Shown in pieces: positions 27,001 through 33,000 of a DNA stretch of 64,000 nt. The stretch spans positions 188,907 to 252,906 of the forward strand of contig JAWAFD010000001.1 of the NCBI GenBank assembly GCA_038890745.1, given 5' to 3'. How positions within the stretch are numbered: the first letter of the stretch is position 1; every line of letters starts with the position of its first letter. The DNA is from Candidatus Anstonellales archaeon (GTDB taxonomy: Archaea > Micrarchaeota > Micrarchaeia > Anstonellales > J096). The position numbers were made by a program.

Positions 27001-30000
27001 ATAGTAATCAATCAGCGCCTCAACCTCCAAACCCATCTCCTCCAAAGCAATCCCTGCTATGATAACAGTTTTTATCTGCCCCTTATTATAATCAATTCCT
27101 TCTGAAAGGGACCCTCCCTGCACAGCACAAAGCAATCCGCCCTCTTCGCTAAACCTCTTAAAAAGCTCATAAACCTCCTTTGGTCTCATTCCTTCTCTCT
27201 GCGCAAAAACCGGCCTTGTCTTAAGCATGGGCAGAACATTGTTCATGACCTTATAAGAGGCAAAGAAAACAGCAGTTCCTCCCGGTGTCATGCTCGCAAT
27301 TCCATCTATTTTCTCCGCAAACTTCTCATACTCCTCAAAGTTTCTTCTGCTATACTTGGTAGTCAGTCCCTCTACTATTATGTTTATTCTGTTCTCTTTT
27401 GAAAATGGTGAGCCATACTGCTTCATAACTGTTCTTTCTTTCTTCAGCCCCAATACATCCCGGTACATTTCAAGCGGAAGAAGGGTTCCGCTCATGAGGA
27501 TTAGAGAGTGCGCCTTTCCAAGCTCTGAGGTTGATATGCTCGGGTCTAGGAATTTTTTGCTTAAAGAAAAATACCCATCCTTTTTTCTTAGTATCCTCAC
27601 CGCAGAGGCTTCTTCCCCTTCCCAATTCTTTAAAAACTTTGCAAGTTTCAAGCAATAGCTTTTTCTTGTTGTTCTTTCCACCCATTCCAACCCAACAGCC
27701 TCAAAATACTCTGCCATCTCGCCAATTGGCATGTTGTAGTGTTCAACAAAAGAAGAAAACATCTCCTTCCCAAGAAGAATTTCTTTATTATCTCCCAAAA
27801 CTTCGCGCGCCCATTCATTAAAGGTTTTTTCCATTTTAGCATTCTCCAATCCCAATTGTTTCATCTCCTTATCCACTCTTCTCATCATAAAAGAATTGAT
27901 TGTTGTTGAAAGCTGTTCCCTCACCCTTTTTGGGAGGTTGTGCGCTTCATCCACTATGATTATAGAGTTCTCCAAACTTTTCTTTGTTTTAAGAAGAAAA
28001 AGCTGCCTCACACCCGGAATTGTCAAATGGAAATAGTCAGCAACTATCACTCTCGCTTTTTTAGCTAGCTCAACAGTCCATTCATACGGACATGCCTCAC
28101 ATTTTTTTCCGATCTCCACAACCTCAAGGTGGTTATAAGATTTATGAAAAAGTTTTTTGAAAAGCTCTTTTGCTTTTTGCTGCTCCGTTTTATTGTATCC
28201 TCTGGCTTTTTTATAATACTCGCACATTTCTTTTTTCCTCATTTTCTCGCATGCTTGGTAGAAAGAGTCCTGGTCCAACTCCTCCAGGGAAGGATGAATG
28301 CACATGTACCTCCTCCCAACAACATCAGCAGTGGGTATTCTCAAGCCATACTTTTCTTCTATTCCTTTCACAACATCCAGCGCTATTCTATGCTGGGAGA
28401 TTTTTGGGGTTAGGAAAAACACATCCAAGTTTTTCTCAAGGGCATGTGTAATCGCCGGGCTAAGAACAGCATCTGTTTTTCCCAACCCAACGGGGGCATG
28501 CGCAAGAAGGTGCATTCCCTTCTCTATAGCTTCGTATGTGTCGTTTACTAGCACATCCTGGTATTTTCTAAGTTTCTCATGCCTAAAATATATTTTTGCC
28601 ACAAAAAAATTTAGCAGTAAACCTTTATAATTATGATTTAACCACTATTCCGCTCTTAGTAATCTCCATAGGGTAGAGCCTCATCTCATGCCTCGCTCCC
28701 TTCATTTTCAAGATTTCTATCATCCTTTCCCTCCTCTCCTCTCTCCATATATAATGGATGTGTATCCATCCATCCACAAGCGTTTCTATTCCGTATTTCG
28801 TTGATGGAAGAACATCCTGGGTTGTCGTTGGGGTATCCTCGGTGATTATGAATGTGGTTGTATTCCATTTCTTTATATTCTCTATGAGCTTCATGAACCC
28901 CCTCTTCCTCTCCAAATCCGTGTTGAAGTGAAGGGCGATGGGCATTATAGAATCTATCACAACCCTTTCGATCCCCATGGTTTCTATCAGCTCTTTTATG
29001 GGATTCATTTTTGAGATAAACTGATCTACTTCGTGTGGAGGGTAGTCAAGGAAAAAAAGCTTTTTGTTTTTTTCGAGAAAACTGATATTCCAAGAAAATT
29101 CGTTCATCTGTTCAACAACATCTTCCTTTGTGCTTTCTATCGGTATGTATAGGCCGGCCTCGCCCTGCTCTGCTCCACCCACGATAAAATTCATTCCAAA
29201 TGTGGATTTTCCGCAGCCGGTTGGTCCGCTTATCGCAATCACGCTTCTCTTAGGTATTCCTCCACCCAAAATTTTATCAAGTCCCTTTATACCTGATTTT
29301 ATAAGCTCCATTTTCATCCCTTCTTTCTGCTTTTTTCAAGAAGCATCCTTCCCAATTTTATTCTGTTTTCAAGCTCCTTTTTTATCCTTTCCAAATCCTC
29401 TTTTTTTGCAACCCTTTCTAGAATGTACTTTTTATTGTCAAACATCATCGTTGACACAGACATCAGGAGTTCGTGTGCATCAGCCATGCTAATTTTTATC
29501 TCCTCTGGCTCGAGTATTTCAACAGAGAATGGATTGTACTTTCCTACAAAATTGACTAGTGCGGGCATGCTCTTCGCAAGAAGCTTAACTTCTATCGCAG
29601 TGGAAACCACATCCTTATCTTGGATGGGTTCATCTATCTCTCCCTTAACATAAACTATCCCGGGCTCGCTCAACATTCTCTTTATAAAACCGGTTGAAAA
29701 CTCTTTTATTTTCTCGCTATCAGTTCCATGCACATCAAAATAGAGTAGTGCCAGCACACCCCCATTCTTCACGGTTTCCTTTATCAGTTTTTCTTCATTG
29801 ATCTCCATGCTATCGCTTTCTTTCTTATCAGAAAAACTTTATAAAGTTGCTATATAAAACAATATAGGGGTTTTTATGAAGCTCAGGGAGAAGTTTATCA
29901 AAAAAGCGCGCGCTGGGATAAAAGAAGCCGGCGAAAAAAAGGATGCCTATCTTGCTAATGTTGAGAGAACGCTCGAAGAAATAGATGAGGTAATAAACAT

Positions 30001-33000
30001 TCTTGCGGAGAGGCTTGAAGACTGGTACGGGCTTTACTTTCCGGAGCTTAAAAGCGATGATAAGGCAAGGTACGCATCAATCGTTCTTGCAATAGAAGAT
30101 AGAAAAAATATAGATGTTGATGAGCTGCGCAAGATTGCGGGAAAGAATGCAGAAAAAATTGCTGAATTGGGAAAAAGAAGCAGCGGCGCAGAAGAGTTTG
30201 ACCTCTCAGAACCGAAAAAACTTGCTGGCGAGATTGTTTCTTTGGCTCAGCTTCGCTCCCACTATGAAAAAACTATTGAGAGGATTGCAAAAGAAATCTG
30301 CCCGAATGCAACAGAGATCGCAGGTGGGAGGATAGTTGCAATGCTGATTGCCCATGCCGGAAGTTTGGAAAGACTTTCAAAAATGCCTGCCTCAACCATA
30401 CAGGTTCTTGGCGCAGAAAAGGCACTCTTCAAACATCTTAGGAACAAGAAAAAGATTGCACCCCCAAAACACGGCATACTTTTTTTGCATCAGTGGATAA
30501 GCAAGGCACCGAAAAAAGTTCGTGGAAAACTTGCCAGGACTATTGCGGCAAAGCTCGCAATAGCGTTTAAGGTTGATTATGGAAAGGGAGGGTTTATAGG
30601 TGATAAATTAAAGGCGCAGATAGATAAAAGGAGGAGGGAGCTCCTAAAATGATCCGCATCCTCGCGCTTGCAGACCTGCACAATGATGAAATGGTTTTGG
30701 ACCGGCTGAGGGTTTTGGAATCGGATAGAAAGTATGATTATTTGGTTGTTGCCGGTGATGTTACCGGAAAAAATATAAGCTACGCACAGGATTTCATAAG
30801 CATCGTTCAGCAGGTATTCTGGGTTCCCGGGAATAATGAAAGTGAAGAGGTAAGAAGGATGTTTGAGGATGCAAAATTTTCTGTTCATGGAAAAAGGGTT
30901 GAGATAAAGGAAGGGTTTAATGTCGTTGGTTTTGGTTTCTCCACCCCAACCCCTTTCAAAACCCCAGGTGAGATGCCTGAGGAGGAGATATACGCCCATA
31001 TGTCTTCTCTGAAAATAGATGCAAACACCATTCTCATAACGCATTCCCCTCCCCATGGACTTTTTGACAGCATTGGGGAAGGGATAAACATAGGAAGTAG
31101 ATCGATTAGAAAAATCATAGAGGAGAAACAACCCAAGCTTGCGCTATTTGGTCATGTTCATGAGCACTTTGGCAAAGCAAACATTGGAAGGACGATATGC
31201 ATAAAAATACCGCATGCCCCATCCCTCAAAGCTGCTGCTGTTGAAATCAGGCACGGGCATGCAGAAGTGTATTTTGTGGAAATATGATCAGAATACGCGC
31301 TTTAGAGAATAAAGAAAAGAAGCGAATAAAGCCGTTCATCTCAAAAATATTTCCGAATGCAAATTTTACAATAAAAAATTCTGATGAGATATTTGTTTAT
31401 GAGATAGATTCCTCACCGGTTGCGTTTGCCCACTTAAGGGAATACCTGCGCGGAACTGTCCTTCTCGGTTTTGGTGTTTTGGAGGATTTCAGAGGACAAG
31501 GAATAGGAAAACAACTTCTTTCCTTTGTTGTTAATCTTGCTGAGAAATCCCATAAAACAATATACCTAAAAGTGAGGAAAAACAACCATGCGGCAGTTTC
31601 TCTTTATAAAAGTTTTGGATTTAGAATAATAAAACGCAAGGGCGACAGACTCATAATGAAGCGCGCTTGCTTCAGTTAGAATGGGGAAGTGGGGTAATCT
31701 GGTTAGCCTGCGAGCTTTGGGAGCTTGCGATCCCGGTTCAAAGAGCCCTATTCAGTTGGATGGTAGAAAGGGCTTGGAAATCCGGGCTTCCCCACTAAAC
31801 CTCGGGAGGAATACCGATGTCGTTTGCCGAAAGGCTTACTTAAGTTATTTTTAAATTTACTTAACCTAACTTAAGTAAAATCCAAATTTACTTAAGTTTA
31901 AAAATTTTTAGGTTATACATCCACATATGTACTTTGAAATAGAACCTAAAAGTAAGAAAAAAGATTTTTTTAACTATGAAAACGAATACGAGCAGATAAA
32001 AAAAGCATTGGAAAGAAAGGAAAAGATAATAGCCGTAGTGGGTGTAAGAAGGGTGGGGAAGACCAGCCTACTCAATGTGATCTACAACGAATCAAAAAAT
32101 CTTAAATTGTGGATAGATGGTAGAATTGTCAAAAATCCTAAAAAGGAGTTGTTGGCTGCTATTTATGAAACTGCGAAAGGAGGCAGGTCTAAAATATTTG
32201 GTAGGATAGAAGGATTAGGGGTATCTTTTTTTGGATTGGGTTTTGATATAAAATTAGAAAATAAAACAATAACCGAAATGGAGAAAAAGATAAAGAATTC
32301 TGGCAGGATGTATGTGTTTATAGATGAAGCCCAGAGAATGGAGGGAGAAGAGCTGGGAGATGTTCTGTCATATTTTTACGATCGATTGCCAAATGTCTCT
32401 TTTATACTTTCGGGAAGCGAGATAGGATTGATGGAAAAGGTTATAGGTGAAAAGGATGCTCAACATCCCCTGTATGGTAGGGAGATCACAAAGATACACC
32501 TTAAAAGGTTGGATAAGAACAGATCGATGGAGTATTTGAAGATTGGTTTTAAGCAGCTAGGTTTGAAAATAGAAAAAGAGGAAATCGAGAAAGCTGTTGA
32601 AGAGCTTGATGGTTTAATAGGATGGCTTACTCTGTATGGATATGAGTCCGGAATCAAAAAGGATAGGAATGCCCTTGAAAGAACAGTAGAGAGAGCAGCC
32701 ATGATCGCAGCTTCTGAACTCAATAGTTTTCTCAAAAATGCTAGAGACAAAAAATTGTACCTAACCATCCTTAGAAATTGTGTAGGGGTTGGATGGGATG
32801 AGCTCCATTTTCGCGTGAGTAAAGGAATTGGCAAACAGATCAATCCGAATCTTTTTAACTTTTGTTTGGAAAGGCTTTTGACATACTCGTTTGTAGAAAA
32901 AAAGAATAAAAAGTACTATCTCGCTGACCCGATTTTGCAGAAATCTACATTTTTGCTTAGGGGCCATGGAATGATGGTATGAAAGAAAAATTTTCAGGCG

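What a model noticed while it worked through the whole genome (the two positions that open the first line are those of the whole stretch)
29876..30652. C/D RNP scaffold Nop5 lacks its fibrillarin-binding N-terminal domain
The only Nop5/Nop56 homologue, g00226 (258 aa), starts at the coiled-coil. It has the coiled-coil and the L7Ae/RNA-binding C-terminal (NOP) domain. It lacks the ~120-aa N-terminal domain through which studied archaeal and eukaryotic Nop5/56/58 hold the methyltransferase fibrillarin. No such domain is found elsewhere in the genome, although fibrillarin (g00230), L7Ae (g00679) and canonical C/D guide RNAs are present. The same truncated form occurs in two other orders of the phylum, where nop5 and the fibrillarin gene are not even linked. 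Micrarchaeota must therefore recruit fibrillarin to the guide RNP in another way.
Evidence so far: phmmer against the PDB aligns residues 5-256 to residues 119-374 of 388 of the 3ID5 Nop5 chain (E 4e-55) and residues 12-256 to 127-375 of 379 of 3NMU. Swiss-Prot aligns residues 15-256 to 115-358 of 414 of MJ0694. Only 67 nt separate its start from the divergent gene g00225. A full-length 464-aa Bathyarchaeota aNOP56 (P0502), searched against all six frames, matches only with its residues 124-376, at C1:218803-219549; residues 1-123 find nothing at E<=1. Pfam Nop5_56-rel_N_Arc (PF21572) is over the cut-off in 0 of 31 sampled Micrarchaeota genomes, while it rings in the M. jannaschii and S. acidocaldarius controls. 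In the complete genomes G032 and G041 the tblastn alignment starts at residue [...]
(Added by a program. Inside this text positions count along the whole contig: contig position 188,907 is position 1 of the stretch shown here. "Call 12" and the like, gene names such as g00115 and contig names such as C1 are that model's own, and its searches are not shown. The text may have been shortened before it was handed on; [...] marks where a part breaks off. The agent that wrote the report below was given it as the finding of a first reader that could run no searches.)

Follow-up and report, generated by a model that had tools for sequence, protein, structure and literature searches.

The report
Nop5 scaffold without fibrillarin-binding domain
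This archaeon, like the rest of its phylum, makes the scaffold protein of the RNA-guided rRNA methylation particle without the domain that normally holds the methyltransferase, so the textbook way of assembling this enzyme cannot apply here and the replacement is still unknown.

Summary
Window 29876-30652 (+) encodes a 258-aa Nop5 made only of the coiled coil and the Nop domain. It starts where the N-terminal domain (NTD) of studied Nop5 ends.

- **No NTD found.** None turned up in the genome with Pfam PF21572 or with my own NTD profile.
- **Phylum-wide.** PF21572 passed its cut-off in 0 of 121 sampled genomes, while 120 have the Nop domain and 119 have fibrillarin.
- **The system looks alive.** Fibrillarin, L7Ae and 4 canonical C/D sRNA candidates are present.

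New here:
- Fibrillarin helix α4, the core of the canonical Nop5 contact, has become polar in this phylum. The interface has therefore decayed on both sides.
- In 44 of 52 genomes with the family, a catalytically intact metallophosphoesterase plus a RimI-like GNAT follows nop5. In other archaea fibrillarin sits there.

How fibrillarin is recruited stays unsolved, and no adaptor was found. The divergent 164-aa neighbour belongs with a KaiC-like ATPase instead.

This scan had already noted NTD-less Nop5 on other Micrarchaeota DNA. I found no paper describing it.

The parts
29876..30652 (+). nop5 lacking the N-terminal domain (258 aa): a basic N-terminal helix, the coiled coil and the Nop (L7Ae/K-turn-binding) domain
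   Evidence: ORF. PF01798 covers residues 33-252, E 1.5e-54. Residues 5-256 align to 119-374 of 3id5_A, E 4.4e-55. The AF2 model has pLDDT 91.4 and is all-helical. The Foldseek top hit is 3pla_A with TMq 0.87; the engineered N-truncated Nop56/58 (3nvi_A) gives TMt 0.84.
29809..29875 (.). 67-nt divergent intergenic spacer with two TATA-like boxes (29838-29845, 29851-29859). It leaves no room for an upstream exon or domain.
   Evidence: Sequence read. The open frame is only 264 aa. Reading the boxes as a promoter is an inference from general knowledge of archaeal promoters.
30649..31287 (+). Metallophosphoesterase (MPE, 212 aa) whose start overlaps the nop5 stop by 4 nt. It is the conserved operon partner of NTD-less nop5 in about half of the phylum.
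   Evidence: PF00149 E 6.7e-15, PF14582, PF12850. Residues invariant over 36 sequences are D9, H11, D37, N62, H132, H169 and H171. It lies directly downstream of nop5 in 44 of 52 genomes with a strong match (compared by hand) and in 35 of 41 loci.
31284..31679 (+). RimI-like GNAT acetyltransferase (131 aa), overlapping the MPE stop; third gene of the conserved nop5-MPE-GNAT cluster
   Evidence: PF00583 E 1.2e-16. TIGR01575 rimI scores 56.9 bits, below its cut-off of 86.4. tblastn finds a GNAT homologue downstream of nop5 in 27 of 41 loci, 25 of them directly after the MPE; the ORF clustering had placed 23 in one cluster.
31927..32982 (+). Archaeal ATPase_2-type ATPase (351 aa), overlapping the fibrillarin start by 4 nt. 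It is an insertion relative to the closest relative, L075.
   Evidence: PF01637 E 9e-16. It is absent between GNAT and fib in L075.
32979..33635 (+). Fibrillarin (218 aa), with no extra domain; helix α4 is shortened and polar
   Evidence: PF01269 covers residues 2-215, E 3.1e-85. 4by9_E E 1.1e-72, with a gap at the residue aligned to P. furiosus Fib R138. Alignment A3 has K48, D134, K168 and H208 invariant. α4 composition.
23479..23527 (-). Candidate box C/D sRNA (49 nt): C box, 12-nt guide, D' box, 3 nt, C' box, 12-nt guide, D box. It fills the gap between two ORFs.
   Evidence: Pattern scan gave 4 hits in the genome and 0 in 10 shuffles. Sequence and flanks. Both guides match SSU rRNA at 10 of 11 Watson-Crick positions. 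The box consensus used for the scan is recalled.

Best explanation
This is a genuine Nop5 that has lost its N-terminal domain across the whole lineage.

What the sequence shows: It keeps the two parts that build the particle. The Nop domain clamps the L7Ae/K-turn of the C/D and C'/D' motifs. The coiled coil pairs two Nop5 molecules across the guide RNA. It has lost the RNase-H-like N-terminal domain that tethers fibrillarin in all studied systems.

Inferred: The particle still exists, built from L7Ae, Nop5 without its NTD, and C/D sRNAs with 11-12-nt guides to rRNA. Fibrillarin, still an intact methyltransferase, still works with it.

The canonical contact is gone on both sides, because fibrillarin helix α4 has become short and polar. 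Fibrillarin must therefore reach the guide:target duplex by a non-canonical route. I think the most likely route is direct, probably weaker, docking on the guide:target duplex and the Nop5 coiled-coil/Nop surface. In part of the phylum it may be helped by the operon partners (metallophosphoesterase, GNAT) or by the basic Arg/Gly-rich tails seen on relatives' Nop5. The route itself is not shown.
For: NTD loss, shown:
- Domain content and alignment limits.
- No room upstream of the start.
- One Nop locus in the genome, with no NTD found by PF21572 or by my own profile.
- PF21572 passes its cut-off in 0 of 121 genomes of the phylum.
- All 19 Nop5 ORFs read in families f7, f8, f10, f11, f14 and f15 lack an NTD. 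18 begin their homology at residue 1-4 of the window protein; the L168 ORF call is 5'-truncated (ref 34).
- Thermoproteota Nop5 carry a 108-128-aa N-extension, 151 aa to the first alternative start in one locus (L150). 38 of 39 loci (all but L114) match the NTD profile, which was built from those same 38.

Scaffold function kept:
- The Nop-domain motifs are invariant across the phylum.
- The model superposes on S. solfataricus Nop5 in an active RNP (3pla_A, TMq 0.87).

The system is still in use:
- Fibrillarin is present in 119 of 121 genomes with 60% mean column identity.
- L7Ae is present.
- There are 4 strict and 1 relaxed C/D sRNA candidates, against 0 in 10 shuffles for the strict pattern and 0-2 in 5 shuffles for the relaxed one.
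- 5 of 10 guides match rRNA at >=10 of 11 Watson-Crick positions, against 15 of 300 shuffled guides and 2 of 10 on the antisense strand.

Continued coupling of nop5 and fib after the loss:
- They are adjacent in G005, G045, G055, G076 and L147.
- They lie on the same strand in one gene string in the window and in L075.

Interface lost on the fibrillarin side:
- Helix α4 is described as central to Nop5 binding in archaea and eukaryotes (PMC7962484, section 10, read in full).
- In 28 Micrarchaeota fibrillarins the α4 segment is 0.28 hydrophobic and 0.31 charged. In 37 Thermoproteota fibrillarins it is 0.51 and 0.08.
Against: - There is no positive evidence that fibrillarin binds this Nop5 or the RNP.
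- In 112 of 118 genomes with both genes they are more than 10 kb apart or on different contigs.
- The polar α4 fits equally well with fibrillarin having no protein partner at all.
- From recalled literature (not read here), engineered N-truncated Nop5 assembles with L7Ae and RNA but does not load fibrillarin. I saw only the title of entry 3nvi.
- The guide-rRNA matches are short, and 2 of 10 antisense controls also reach 10 of 11.
- The canonical comparison set for α4 is a single phylum, and related sequences are not independent.
Confidence: 0.55

Rival explanations
1. Fibrillarin has left the guide RNP. Nop5 without its NTD, with L7Ae and the C/D RNAs, acts like Prp31/15.5K: a K-turn RNP that chaperones rRNA folding by base-pairing or recruits other factors. 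Fibrillarin meanwhile methylates RNA without a guide, or with another partner.
For: - The architecture equals that of Prp31 (coiled coil plus Nop domain, no NTD). The model matches Prp31 chains at TMt 0.80-0.81.
- The genes are unlinked in most genomes.
- Fibrillarin α4 is polar, as expected for an exposed surface.
- The operon partner of nop5 is another enzyme, not fibrillarin.
Against: - The sequence is far closer to Nop5 than to Prp31: E 4.4e-55 against 2.6e-13.
- nop5-fib adjacency survives in several lineages that already lack the NTD (G045, G076, G055, G005, L147).
- The sRNAs keep both D and D' boxes and the 11-12-nt spacing. From recalled knowledge, that spacing matters for placing the methyltransferase.
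- Fibrillarin stays highly conserved.
Confidence: 0.22
2. An adaptor protein replaces the NTD. The only recurrent candidate is the metallophosphoesterase (with the GNAT) encoded right after nop5. It would bridge Nop5 and fibrillarin or join the particle as an extra subunit.
For: - The MPE lies directly downstream of nop5, same strand, in 44 of 52 genomes that have it (compared by hand).
- In 27 of 35 loci the nop5 stop and the MPE start overlap or lie <=10 nt apart.
- In G085 the MPE sits 110 nt upstream of fib instead.
- In L075 the order is nop5-MPE-GNAT-fib.
- In 37 of 39 Thermoproteota loci that slot holds fibrillarin, with no MPE or GNAT within 3 kb.
Against: - The MPE family was found in only 56 of 121 genomes at E<=1e-15. 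It is missing or only weakly matched in the two largest families (f7 2 of 38, f8 2 of 22), which also lack the NTD. It cannot be the general solution.
- Its catalytic residues are invariant, so it is selected as an enzyme.
- Its nearest clusters are generic metallophosphoesterases of Thermoplasmatota and bacteria.
- No Nop5-MPE fusion appears among the 120 longest-form hits.
Confidence: 0.1
3. The NTD persists as a separate gene that is too divergent to detect.
For: - PF21572 is insensitive: it rings in 3 of 14 controls and passes its cut-off in 1.
- NTD sequences vary greatly among archaea (PMC7962484, passages read).
- The genome is 93.8% complete.
Against: - My own profile finds nothing better than E 0.31 in 7689 ORFs.
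- The weak PF21572 hits in 15 of 121 genomes fall on unrelated proteins such as small Toprim-like ORFs.
- No small conserved gene sits next to fib or nop5 across the phylum.
- Fibrillarin α4, which inserts into the NTD, has lost its hydrophobic character.
Confidence: 0.08
4. It is an artefact: a truncated gene call, a frameshift or an assembly break.
For: None found.
Against: - The 67-nt spacer ends at a conserved divergent gene.
- The same start point is seen in 120 genomes, including single-contig assemblies.
- There are no stops inside any match.
Confidence: 0.01

Closest known systems
Canonical archaeal Nop5 (aNOP56; NCBIfam NF011121; structures 3ID5/3PLA of S. solfataricus, 2NNW/3NMU of P. 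furiosus)
   Same: The coiled coil and Nop domain are shared: 41% identity to 3pla_A with TMq 0.87, and E 4.4e-55 to 3id5_A. It is a single copy and co-occurs with L7Ae, fibrillarin and C/D sRNAs.
   Different: - It lacks residues equivalent to 1-118 (the fibrillarin-binding NTD).
- It scores below the NCBIfam cut-off (269.9 against 452).
- The gene after it is a metallophosphoesterase, not fibrillarin.
Engineered N-terminally truncated Nop5 (3NVI, 3ICX)
   Same: Same domain content; TMt 0.84 and 0.87.
   Different: Those are laboratory constructs. This is the natural and only form in a whole phylum. I saw only the entry titles.
Eukaryotic Prp31 (U4 snRNP; 2OZB, 3SIU)
   Same: A Nop-family protein that naturally lacks the NTD and binds a K-turn/15.5K complex without fibrillarin; TMt 0.80-0.81. 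The loss of the NTD in Prp31 is described in 10.1101/2024.06.21.599552 (passages read).
   Different: Only 21-24% identity, and E 2.6e-13 against 4.4e-55 for Nop5. Prp31 arose in eukaryotes beside intact Nop56/58. Here no intact paralogue remains.
Eukaryotic Nop56/Nop58 with charged C-terminal tails
   Same: Relatives of this protein in the phylum carry long basic or Arg/Gly-rich tails.
   Different: The window protein has no tail, and eukaryotic Nop56/58 keep the NTD.

Membership tests
Archaeal Nop5/aNOP56 (box C/D RNP scaffold) | C-terminal Nop domain (PF01798) that binds L7Ae and the K-turn | tested here: met
   PF01798 covers residues 33-252, E 1.5e-54. The motifs are invariant across the phylum. 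Binding itself cannot be tested with these tools.
Archaeal Nop5/aNOP56 (box C/D RNP scaffold) | Coiled-coil dimerisation domain | tested here: met
   It aligns to the coiled-coil part of 3id5_A. The model has long helices at 22-51 and 111-141 and superposes on 3pla_A.
Archaeal Nop5/aNOP56 (box C/D RNP scaffold) | N-terminal fibrillarin-binding domain (PF21572 / NOP5NT) | tested here: not met
   The protein starts at the position aligned to residue 119 of 3id5_A. No PF21572 hit in the protein or the genome. My own NTD profile has a best E of 0.31.
Archaeal Nop5/aNOP56 (box C/D RNP scaffold) | Score over the NCBIfam NF011121 equivalog cut-off | tested here: not met
   269.9 bits against a cut-off of 452.
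Archaeal Nop5/aNOP56 (box C/D RNP scaffold) | nop5 immediately followed by the fibrillarin gene | tested here: not met
   The window has three genes in between. Thermoproteota loci show adjacency in 37 of 39. This is a typical feature, not a strictly defining one.
Box C/D sRNP system as a whole | L7Ae, fibrillarin and C/D guide RNAs present in the genome | tested here: met
   The sRNAs are predicted by pattern only.
Box C/D sRNP system as a whole | Guide-directed 2'-O-methylation of rRNA | not testable with these tools
   This needs RiboMeth-seq or reconstitution.
Prp31-type Nop proteins | Coiled coil plus Nop domain without an NTD | tested here: met
Prp31-type Nop proteins | Closest sequence kinship to Prp31 | tested here: not met
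   E 2.6e-13 to Prp31 against 4.4e-55 to Nop5.

The most novel reading that the evidence does not exclude
In roughly half of the phylum the guide-RNA scaffold has changed its operon partner. A catalytically intact metallophosphoesterase, translationally coupled to NTD-less nop5, sits where fibrillarin sits in other archaea. The boldest reading is that these particles deliver a different enzyme to RNA sites chosen by C/D guides, giving an RNA-guided phosphoesterase. Alternatively, the esterase is the new bridge to fibrillarin.
Probability: 0.08. Interest if true: 0.9.

Novelty: new variant of a known kind. Interest (0 to 1): 0.62.

Why it matters
All structural and biochemical models of box C/D RNPs, archaeal and eukaryotic, rest on the Nop5 N-domain holding fibrillarin. 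A whole phylum keeps fibrillarin, L7Ae and guide RNAs but has lost that domain, and its fibrillarin contact helix has changed too. This is a natural experiment. Either there is a second, unknown way to load the methyltransferase, or guide RNPs can have a life without it.

Either answer bears on how the particle evolved, including the parallel loss of this domain in Prp31. The question is directly testable with four small recombinant proteins and a 49-nt RNA. The conserved nop5-metallophosphoesterase-GNAT gene string gives a concrete new lead.

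Tried and rejected
1. **The divergent 164-aa neighbour (29314-29808, -) as a split-off NTD or adaptor.**
   - It belongs to a family in 119 of 121 genomes. The AF2 model has pLDDT 92, with a ferredoxin-like β-α-β-β-α-β domain plus a helical hairpin.
   - Foldseek gave no PDB hit at E<=1e-3. VIA-wide gave only generic ferredoxin-like rows with Z<=7.9, and no Nop5 chain among the 50 rows shown.
   - Its conserved partner is the KaiC-like ATPase downstream, seen in 27 of 30 loci by blastp, the 3 others including two loci that end at or beside the gene. It lies next to nop5 in only 6 of 30. Rejected as a candidate.
2. **Weak PF21572 hits.** These occur in 15 of 121 genomes and fall on unrelated ORFs; three are small Toprim-like proteins.
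3. **My own NTD profile against all ORFs.** Nothing was found.
4. **Gene neighbours.**
   - Neighbours of fibrillarin in 30 loci include SBDS, a β-CASP RNase, PPDK and others. None is phylum-wide.
   - Neighbours of nop5 in 19 loci of families without the MPE include a GlyRS-like gene and a winged-helix protein. No adaptor was seen.
   - The two small ORFs between nop5 and fib in L147 look like a toxin-antitoxin pair, judged by eye.
5. **Complex prediction, Nop5 (A5) with the MPE (A4).** The verdict was 'no answer' (scores 0.00 and 0.00). It is neither evidence for nor against binding.
6. **Search for fused forms longer than 452 aa.** Micrarchaeota long forms carry only PF01798. There was no fusion to the MPE or to fibrillarin. 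One canonical Nop5-fibrillarin fusion (P0299) turned up.
7. **Site-by-site conservation contrast of fibrillarin.** Only 4 sites are conserved in Thermoproteota but variable here. I could not map them to the interface. The interface tyrosine (Pf Y102, window Y92) is kept equally in both groups.
8. **Attempt to test Iainarchaeota through L129.** The record is titled 'ainarchaeum', but the genome is one of the window's own phylum sample: searches give identical coordinates.
9. **Literature.** 'Micrarchaeota' with 'fibrillarin' gave 0 papers. 'Nop5' with 'DPANN' gave 3 papers, each with a single mention, seen as listing only. 'Nop5', 'lacks the N-terminal' and 'archaea' returned only the IS110/Nop5 preprint, which says this of Prp31.

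Full report
**The gene.** Window 29876-30652 (+) is an ATG-started ORF of 258 aa. Only six further codons are open upstream; the stop-to-stop frame is 264 aa. The 67-nt spacer to the divergent gene at 29314-29808 (-) holds two TATA-like boxes close to the start. I read these as the promoter from general knowledge of archaeal promoters. There is therefore no room for a missed N-terminal exon.

Pfam finds only the Nop domain, PF01798, at residues 33-252 with E 1.5e-54. phmmer against PDB sequences aligns residues 5-256 to 119-374 of the 388-aa S. solfataricus Nop5 chain 3id5_A (E 4.4e-55), and residues 12-256 to 127-375 of P. furiosus 3nmu_A. NCBIfam's aNOP56 model matches positions 123-375 of 417 and stays under its cut-off, 269.9 against 452 bits.

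An AlphaFold2 model built on 36 sequences has pLDDT 91.4 and is all-helical, with a poorly defined basic first helix. By Foldseek it superposes best on Nop5 of the substrate-bound S. solfataricus RNP (3pla_A, TMq 0.87). It fits an engineered N-terminally truncated Nop56/58 (3nvi_A, TMt 0.84) and Prp31 (TMt 0.80-0.81) almost over their whole length.

**Absence of the N-domain.** The genome is 989,524 bases in 5 contigs and 93.8% complete. It has one Nop-domain locus and no PF21572 match at E<=10. That Pfam model is weak: it rings in 3 of 14 controls and passes its cut-off in 1.

I therefore built my own profile from the N-terminal 108-151 aa (plus 12) of 38 Thermoproteota Nop5 proteins, fetched with the search for related loci. 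Its best hit among 7689 stop-to-stop ORFs of the genome has E 0.31. It also gives nothing on any Micrarchaeota Nop5; its best E there is 0.33. That it recovers its own 38 sequences is by construction.

**Phylum sample.** In an evenly drawn sample of 121 genomes of the phylum:
- the Nop domain is present in 120, as a single copy;
- PF21572 passes its cut-off in 0;
- fibrillarin is present in 119.

One of the 121, G029, is unpublished. Without it the counts are 119 of 120, 0 of 120 and 118 of 120.

The 15 genomes with weak PF21572 hits hit unrelated ORFs, three of them small Toprim-like proteins. Long Micrarchaeota forms carry Arg/Gly-rich low-complexity extensions or spurious upstream frames, not a domain. 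By contrast the Thermoproteota loci have a 108-128-aa N-extension in all but two loci (L150 151 aa to the first alternative start; L114 none). 105 of the 120 longest-form hits carry a precomputed PF21572.

**Is the system still in use?**
- Fibrillarin (32979-33635, 218 aa, PF01269 E 3e-85) has no added domain. Across 28 sequences of the phylum, K48, D134, K168 and H208 are invariant. I recall these as the K-D-K-H catalytic set of this methyltransferase class.
- L7Ae is present in a 135-aa frame.
- A scan with the recalled C/D consensus finds 4 genes of 48-49 nt, against 0 in ten shuffles, plus one with a single box mismatch. One lies in the window at 23479-23527 (-), exactly filling an intergenic gap.
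- Five of the ten guides match the genome's own rRNA at >=10 of 11 Watson-Crick positions. Only 15 of 300 shuffled guides do so. However, 2 of 10 also do on the antisense strand, so this is supportive rather than strong.

**Linkage.**
- In 37 of 39 Thermoproteota loci, fibrillarin directly follows full-length nop5, and no homologue of the window's MPE or GNAT lies within 3 kb.
- In the phylum sample, nop5 and fib are adjacent in 4 of the 118 genomes with both (G005, G045, G055, G076). They are within 10 kb in two more: this genome at 2.35 kb and G021 at 8.4 kb. I compared by hand.
- Adjacency thus survives in some lineages whose Nop5 is already truncated: ORFs of 259-265 aa in L170 and L171, and in L172 the homology also starts at window residue 1 behind an upstream-extended ORF call.

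**A new operon partner.** The gene that starts 4 nt before the nop5 stop is a 212-aa metallophosphoesterase (30649-31287), followed in the same way by a RimI-like GNAT (31284-31679).
- A profile of this esterase finds it in 56 of 121 genomes at E<=1e-15, with 52 strong matches.
- In 44 of those 52 it lies directly downstream of the Nop match on the same strand. In G085 it lies 110 nt upstream of fibrillarin instead (compared by hand).
- In a second sample of 41 loci it follows nop5 in 35. In 27 of the 35 the stop and start overlap or lie <=10 nt apart. This sample overlaps the first, because both draw on species representatives.
- In the closest relative (L075, 89% identity) the string is nop5-MPE-GNAT-fib. 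The window has an ATPase_2 gene inserted before fib.
- The esterase keeps all metal-binding and catalytic residues, invariant in 36 sequences.
- It is missing or only weakly matched in the two largest families of the phylum (f7 2 of 38, f8 2 of 22), which also lack the N-domain. It therefore cannot be the general answer.
- Its nearest clusters are generic esterases of Thermoplasmatota and bacteria.

**The fibrillarin side of the lost interface.** The paper PMC7962484 states that fibrillarin helix α4 inserts between two helices of the Nop5/Nop56 N-domain in all archaeal and eukaryotic structures. It also states that a basic α4 residue (P. furiosus R138) and a tyrosine (Y102) are contact points. 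I read section 10 in full and passages of sections 6-11.
- The window's fibrillarin keeps the tyrosine (Y92) but has a gap at the residue aligned to R138.
- Over the α4 segment, 28 Micrarchaeota fibrillarins are 0.28 hydrophobic and 0.31 charged. 37 Thermoproteota fibrillarins are 0.51 and 0.08.
- The P. furiosus and M. jannaschii chains printed follow the hydrophobic pattern.
- The sequences are related, so the p-value printed overstates the case, and the comparison group is one phylum.

Still, the helix that used to be buried now looks like a surface. This fits real loss of the canonical contact and argues against a hidden canonical N-domain.

**What I conclude.** It is shown that this is a genuine, lineage-wide N-domain-less Nop5 that keeps its RNA/L7Ae-binding and dimerising parts. 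It sits in a genome that keeps fibrillarin, L7Ae and guide-like RNAs, and the fibrillarin contact helix has diverged.

It is inferred, with about 0.55 confidence, that fibrillarin still works with this particle through a non-canonical route, most simply direct docking on the guide:target duplex and the remaining Nop5 surface.

The rivals, with my confidence in each, are:
- fibrillarin has left the particle, which then works like Prp31 (0.22);
- an adaptor, with the esterase as the only recurrent candidate (0.10);
- an undetectably divergent separate N-domain (0.08);
- an artefact (0.01).

No tool result here tells the first three apart.

**Known or new.** Earlier notes of this scan on other genomes had already seen N-domain-less Nop5 in Micrarchaeota (e1-1173619, e1-1491230, e1-1089464) and reported it for Iainarchaeota (e1-4831313). 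I confirmed the former on my own sample and could not test the latter.

In the held library I found no paper describing it. 'Micrarchaeota' with 'fibrillarin' gave 0 papers. 'Nop5' with 'DPANN' gave 3 papers with single mentions, seen as listing only. The IS110/Nop5 preprint speaks of N-domain loss only for Prp31. Subscription journals are not covered. The nop5-esterase-GNAT string and the α4 shift are, as far as these searches go, new observations.

Noticed in passing
window 29314-29808 (-) and 28631-29317 (-): A 164-aa protein of an unnamed family (precomputed PF27325, not in the local Pfam copy) is present in 119 of 121 genomes of the phylum. It is followed in 27 of 30 loci by a KaiC-like ATPase whose start overlaps its stop. 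The model (pLDDT 92) shows a ferredoxin-like domain plus a long helical hairpin, with no specific PDB match. It may be a phylum-specific partner of the KaiC-like ATPase.
   Followed up: partly
window 30649-31679 (+): The metallophosphoesterase and the RimI-like GNAT form a conserved, translationally coupled string after nop5 in about half of the phylum. In G085 the esterase sits next to fibrillarin instead.
   Followed up: partly
window 23479-23527 (-); genome C1:128470-128518, C4:30967-31014, C4:63021-63069, C4:96719-96767 (all -): There are five candidate box C/D sRNAs of 48-49 nt. Several guides pair with conserved SSU stretches near its 3' end. The total is small for an archaeon.
   Followed up: partly
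window 1-559 (+); genome C1:184353-189465 and C3:13670-16436: The LSU rRNA gene spans 5.1 kb for a 2987-position model. The SSU gene spans 2.8 kb in two matched pieces for a 1478-position model. The rRNA genes therefore seem to hold large insertions or introns.
   Followed up: no
window 35716-35817 (-): Rfam finds a 102-nt tRNA (55.8 bits) that ARAGORN does not. It probably carries an intron.
   Followed up: no
window 31927-32982 (+): An archaeal ATPase_2-type ATPase (351 aa) overlaps the fibrillarin start by 4 nt. It is absent at this place in the closest relative L075, so it is a recent insertion into the nop5...fib gene string.
   Followed up: partly
L147:3776-4295 (+): Two small ORFs (76 and 104 aa) that look like a toxin-antitoxin pair, judged by eye, lie between NTD-less nop5 and fibrillarin in one Micrarchaeota genome.
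   Followed up: no
L052:809-1504, L065:2145-2849, L055:2148-3401: In one genus an SBDS ribosome-maturation gene is translationally coupled upstream of fibrillarin. In another genome a β-CASP RNase follows it. Fibrillarin thus stays in ribosome-biogenesis neighbourhoods.
   Followed up: partly
L162, L166, L078, L090, L097 and proteins P0171, P0222: Many relatives' Nop5 carry long Arg/Gly- or Arg/Pro-rich repeats, at the C-terminus or at the N-terminus. They are reminiscent of the eukaryotic fibrillarin GAR domain and the Nop56/58 tails. The window protein has none.
   Followed up: partly
L129 (record titled 'Candidatus ainarchaeum sp.'): This genome is grouped by the tool in the window's own phylum: G121 has the same coordinates as G089. 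The record's name therefore does not show Iainarchaeota.
   Followed up: yes
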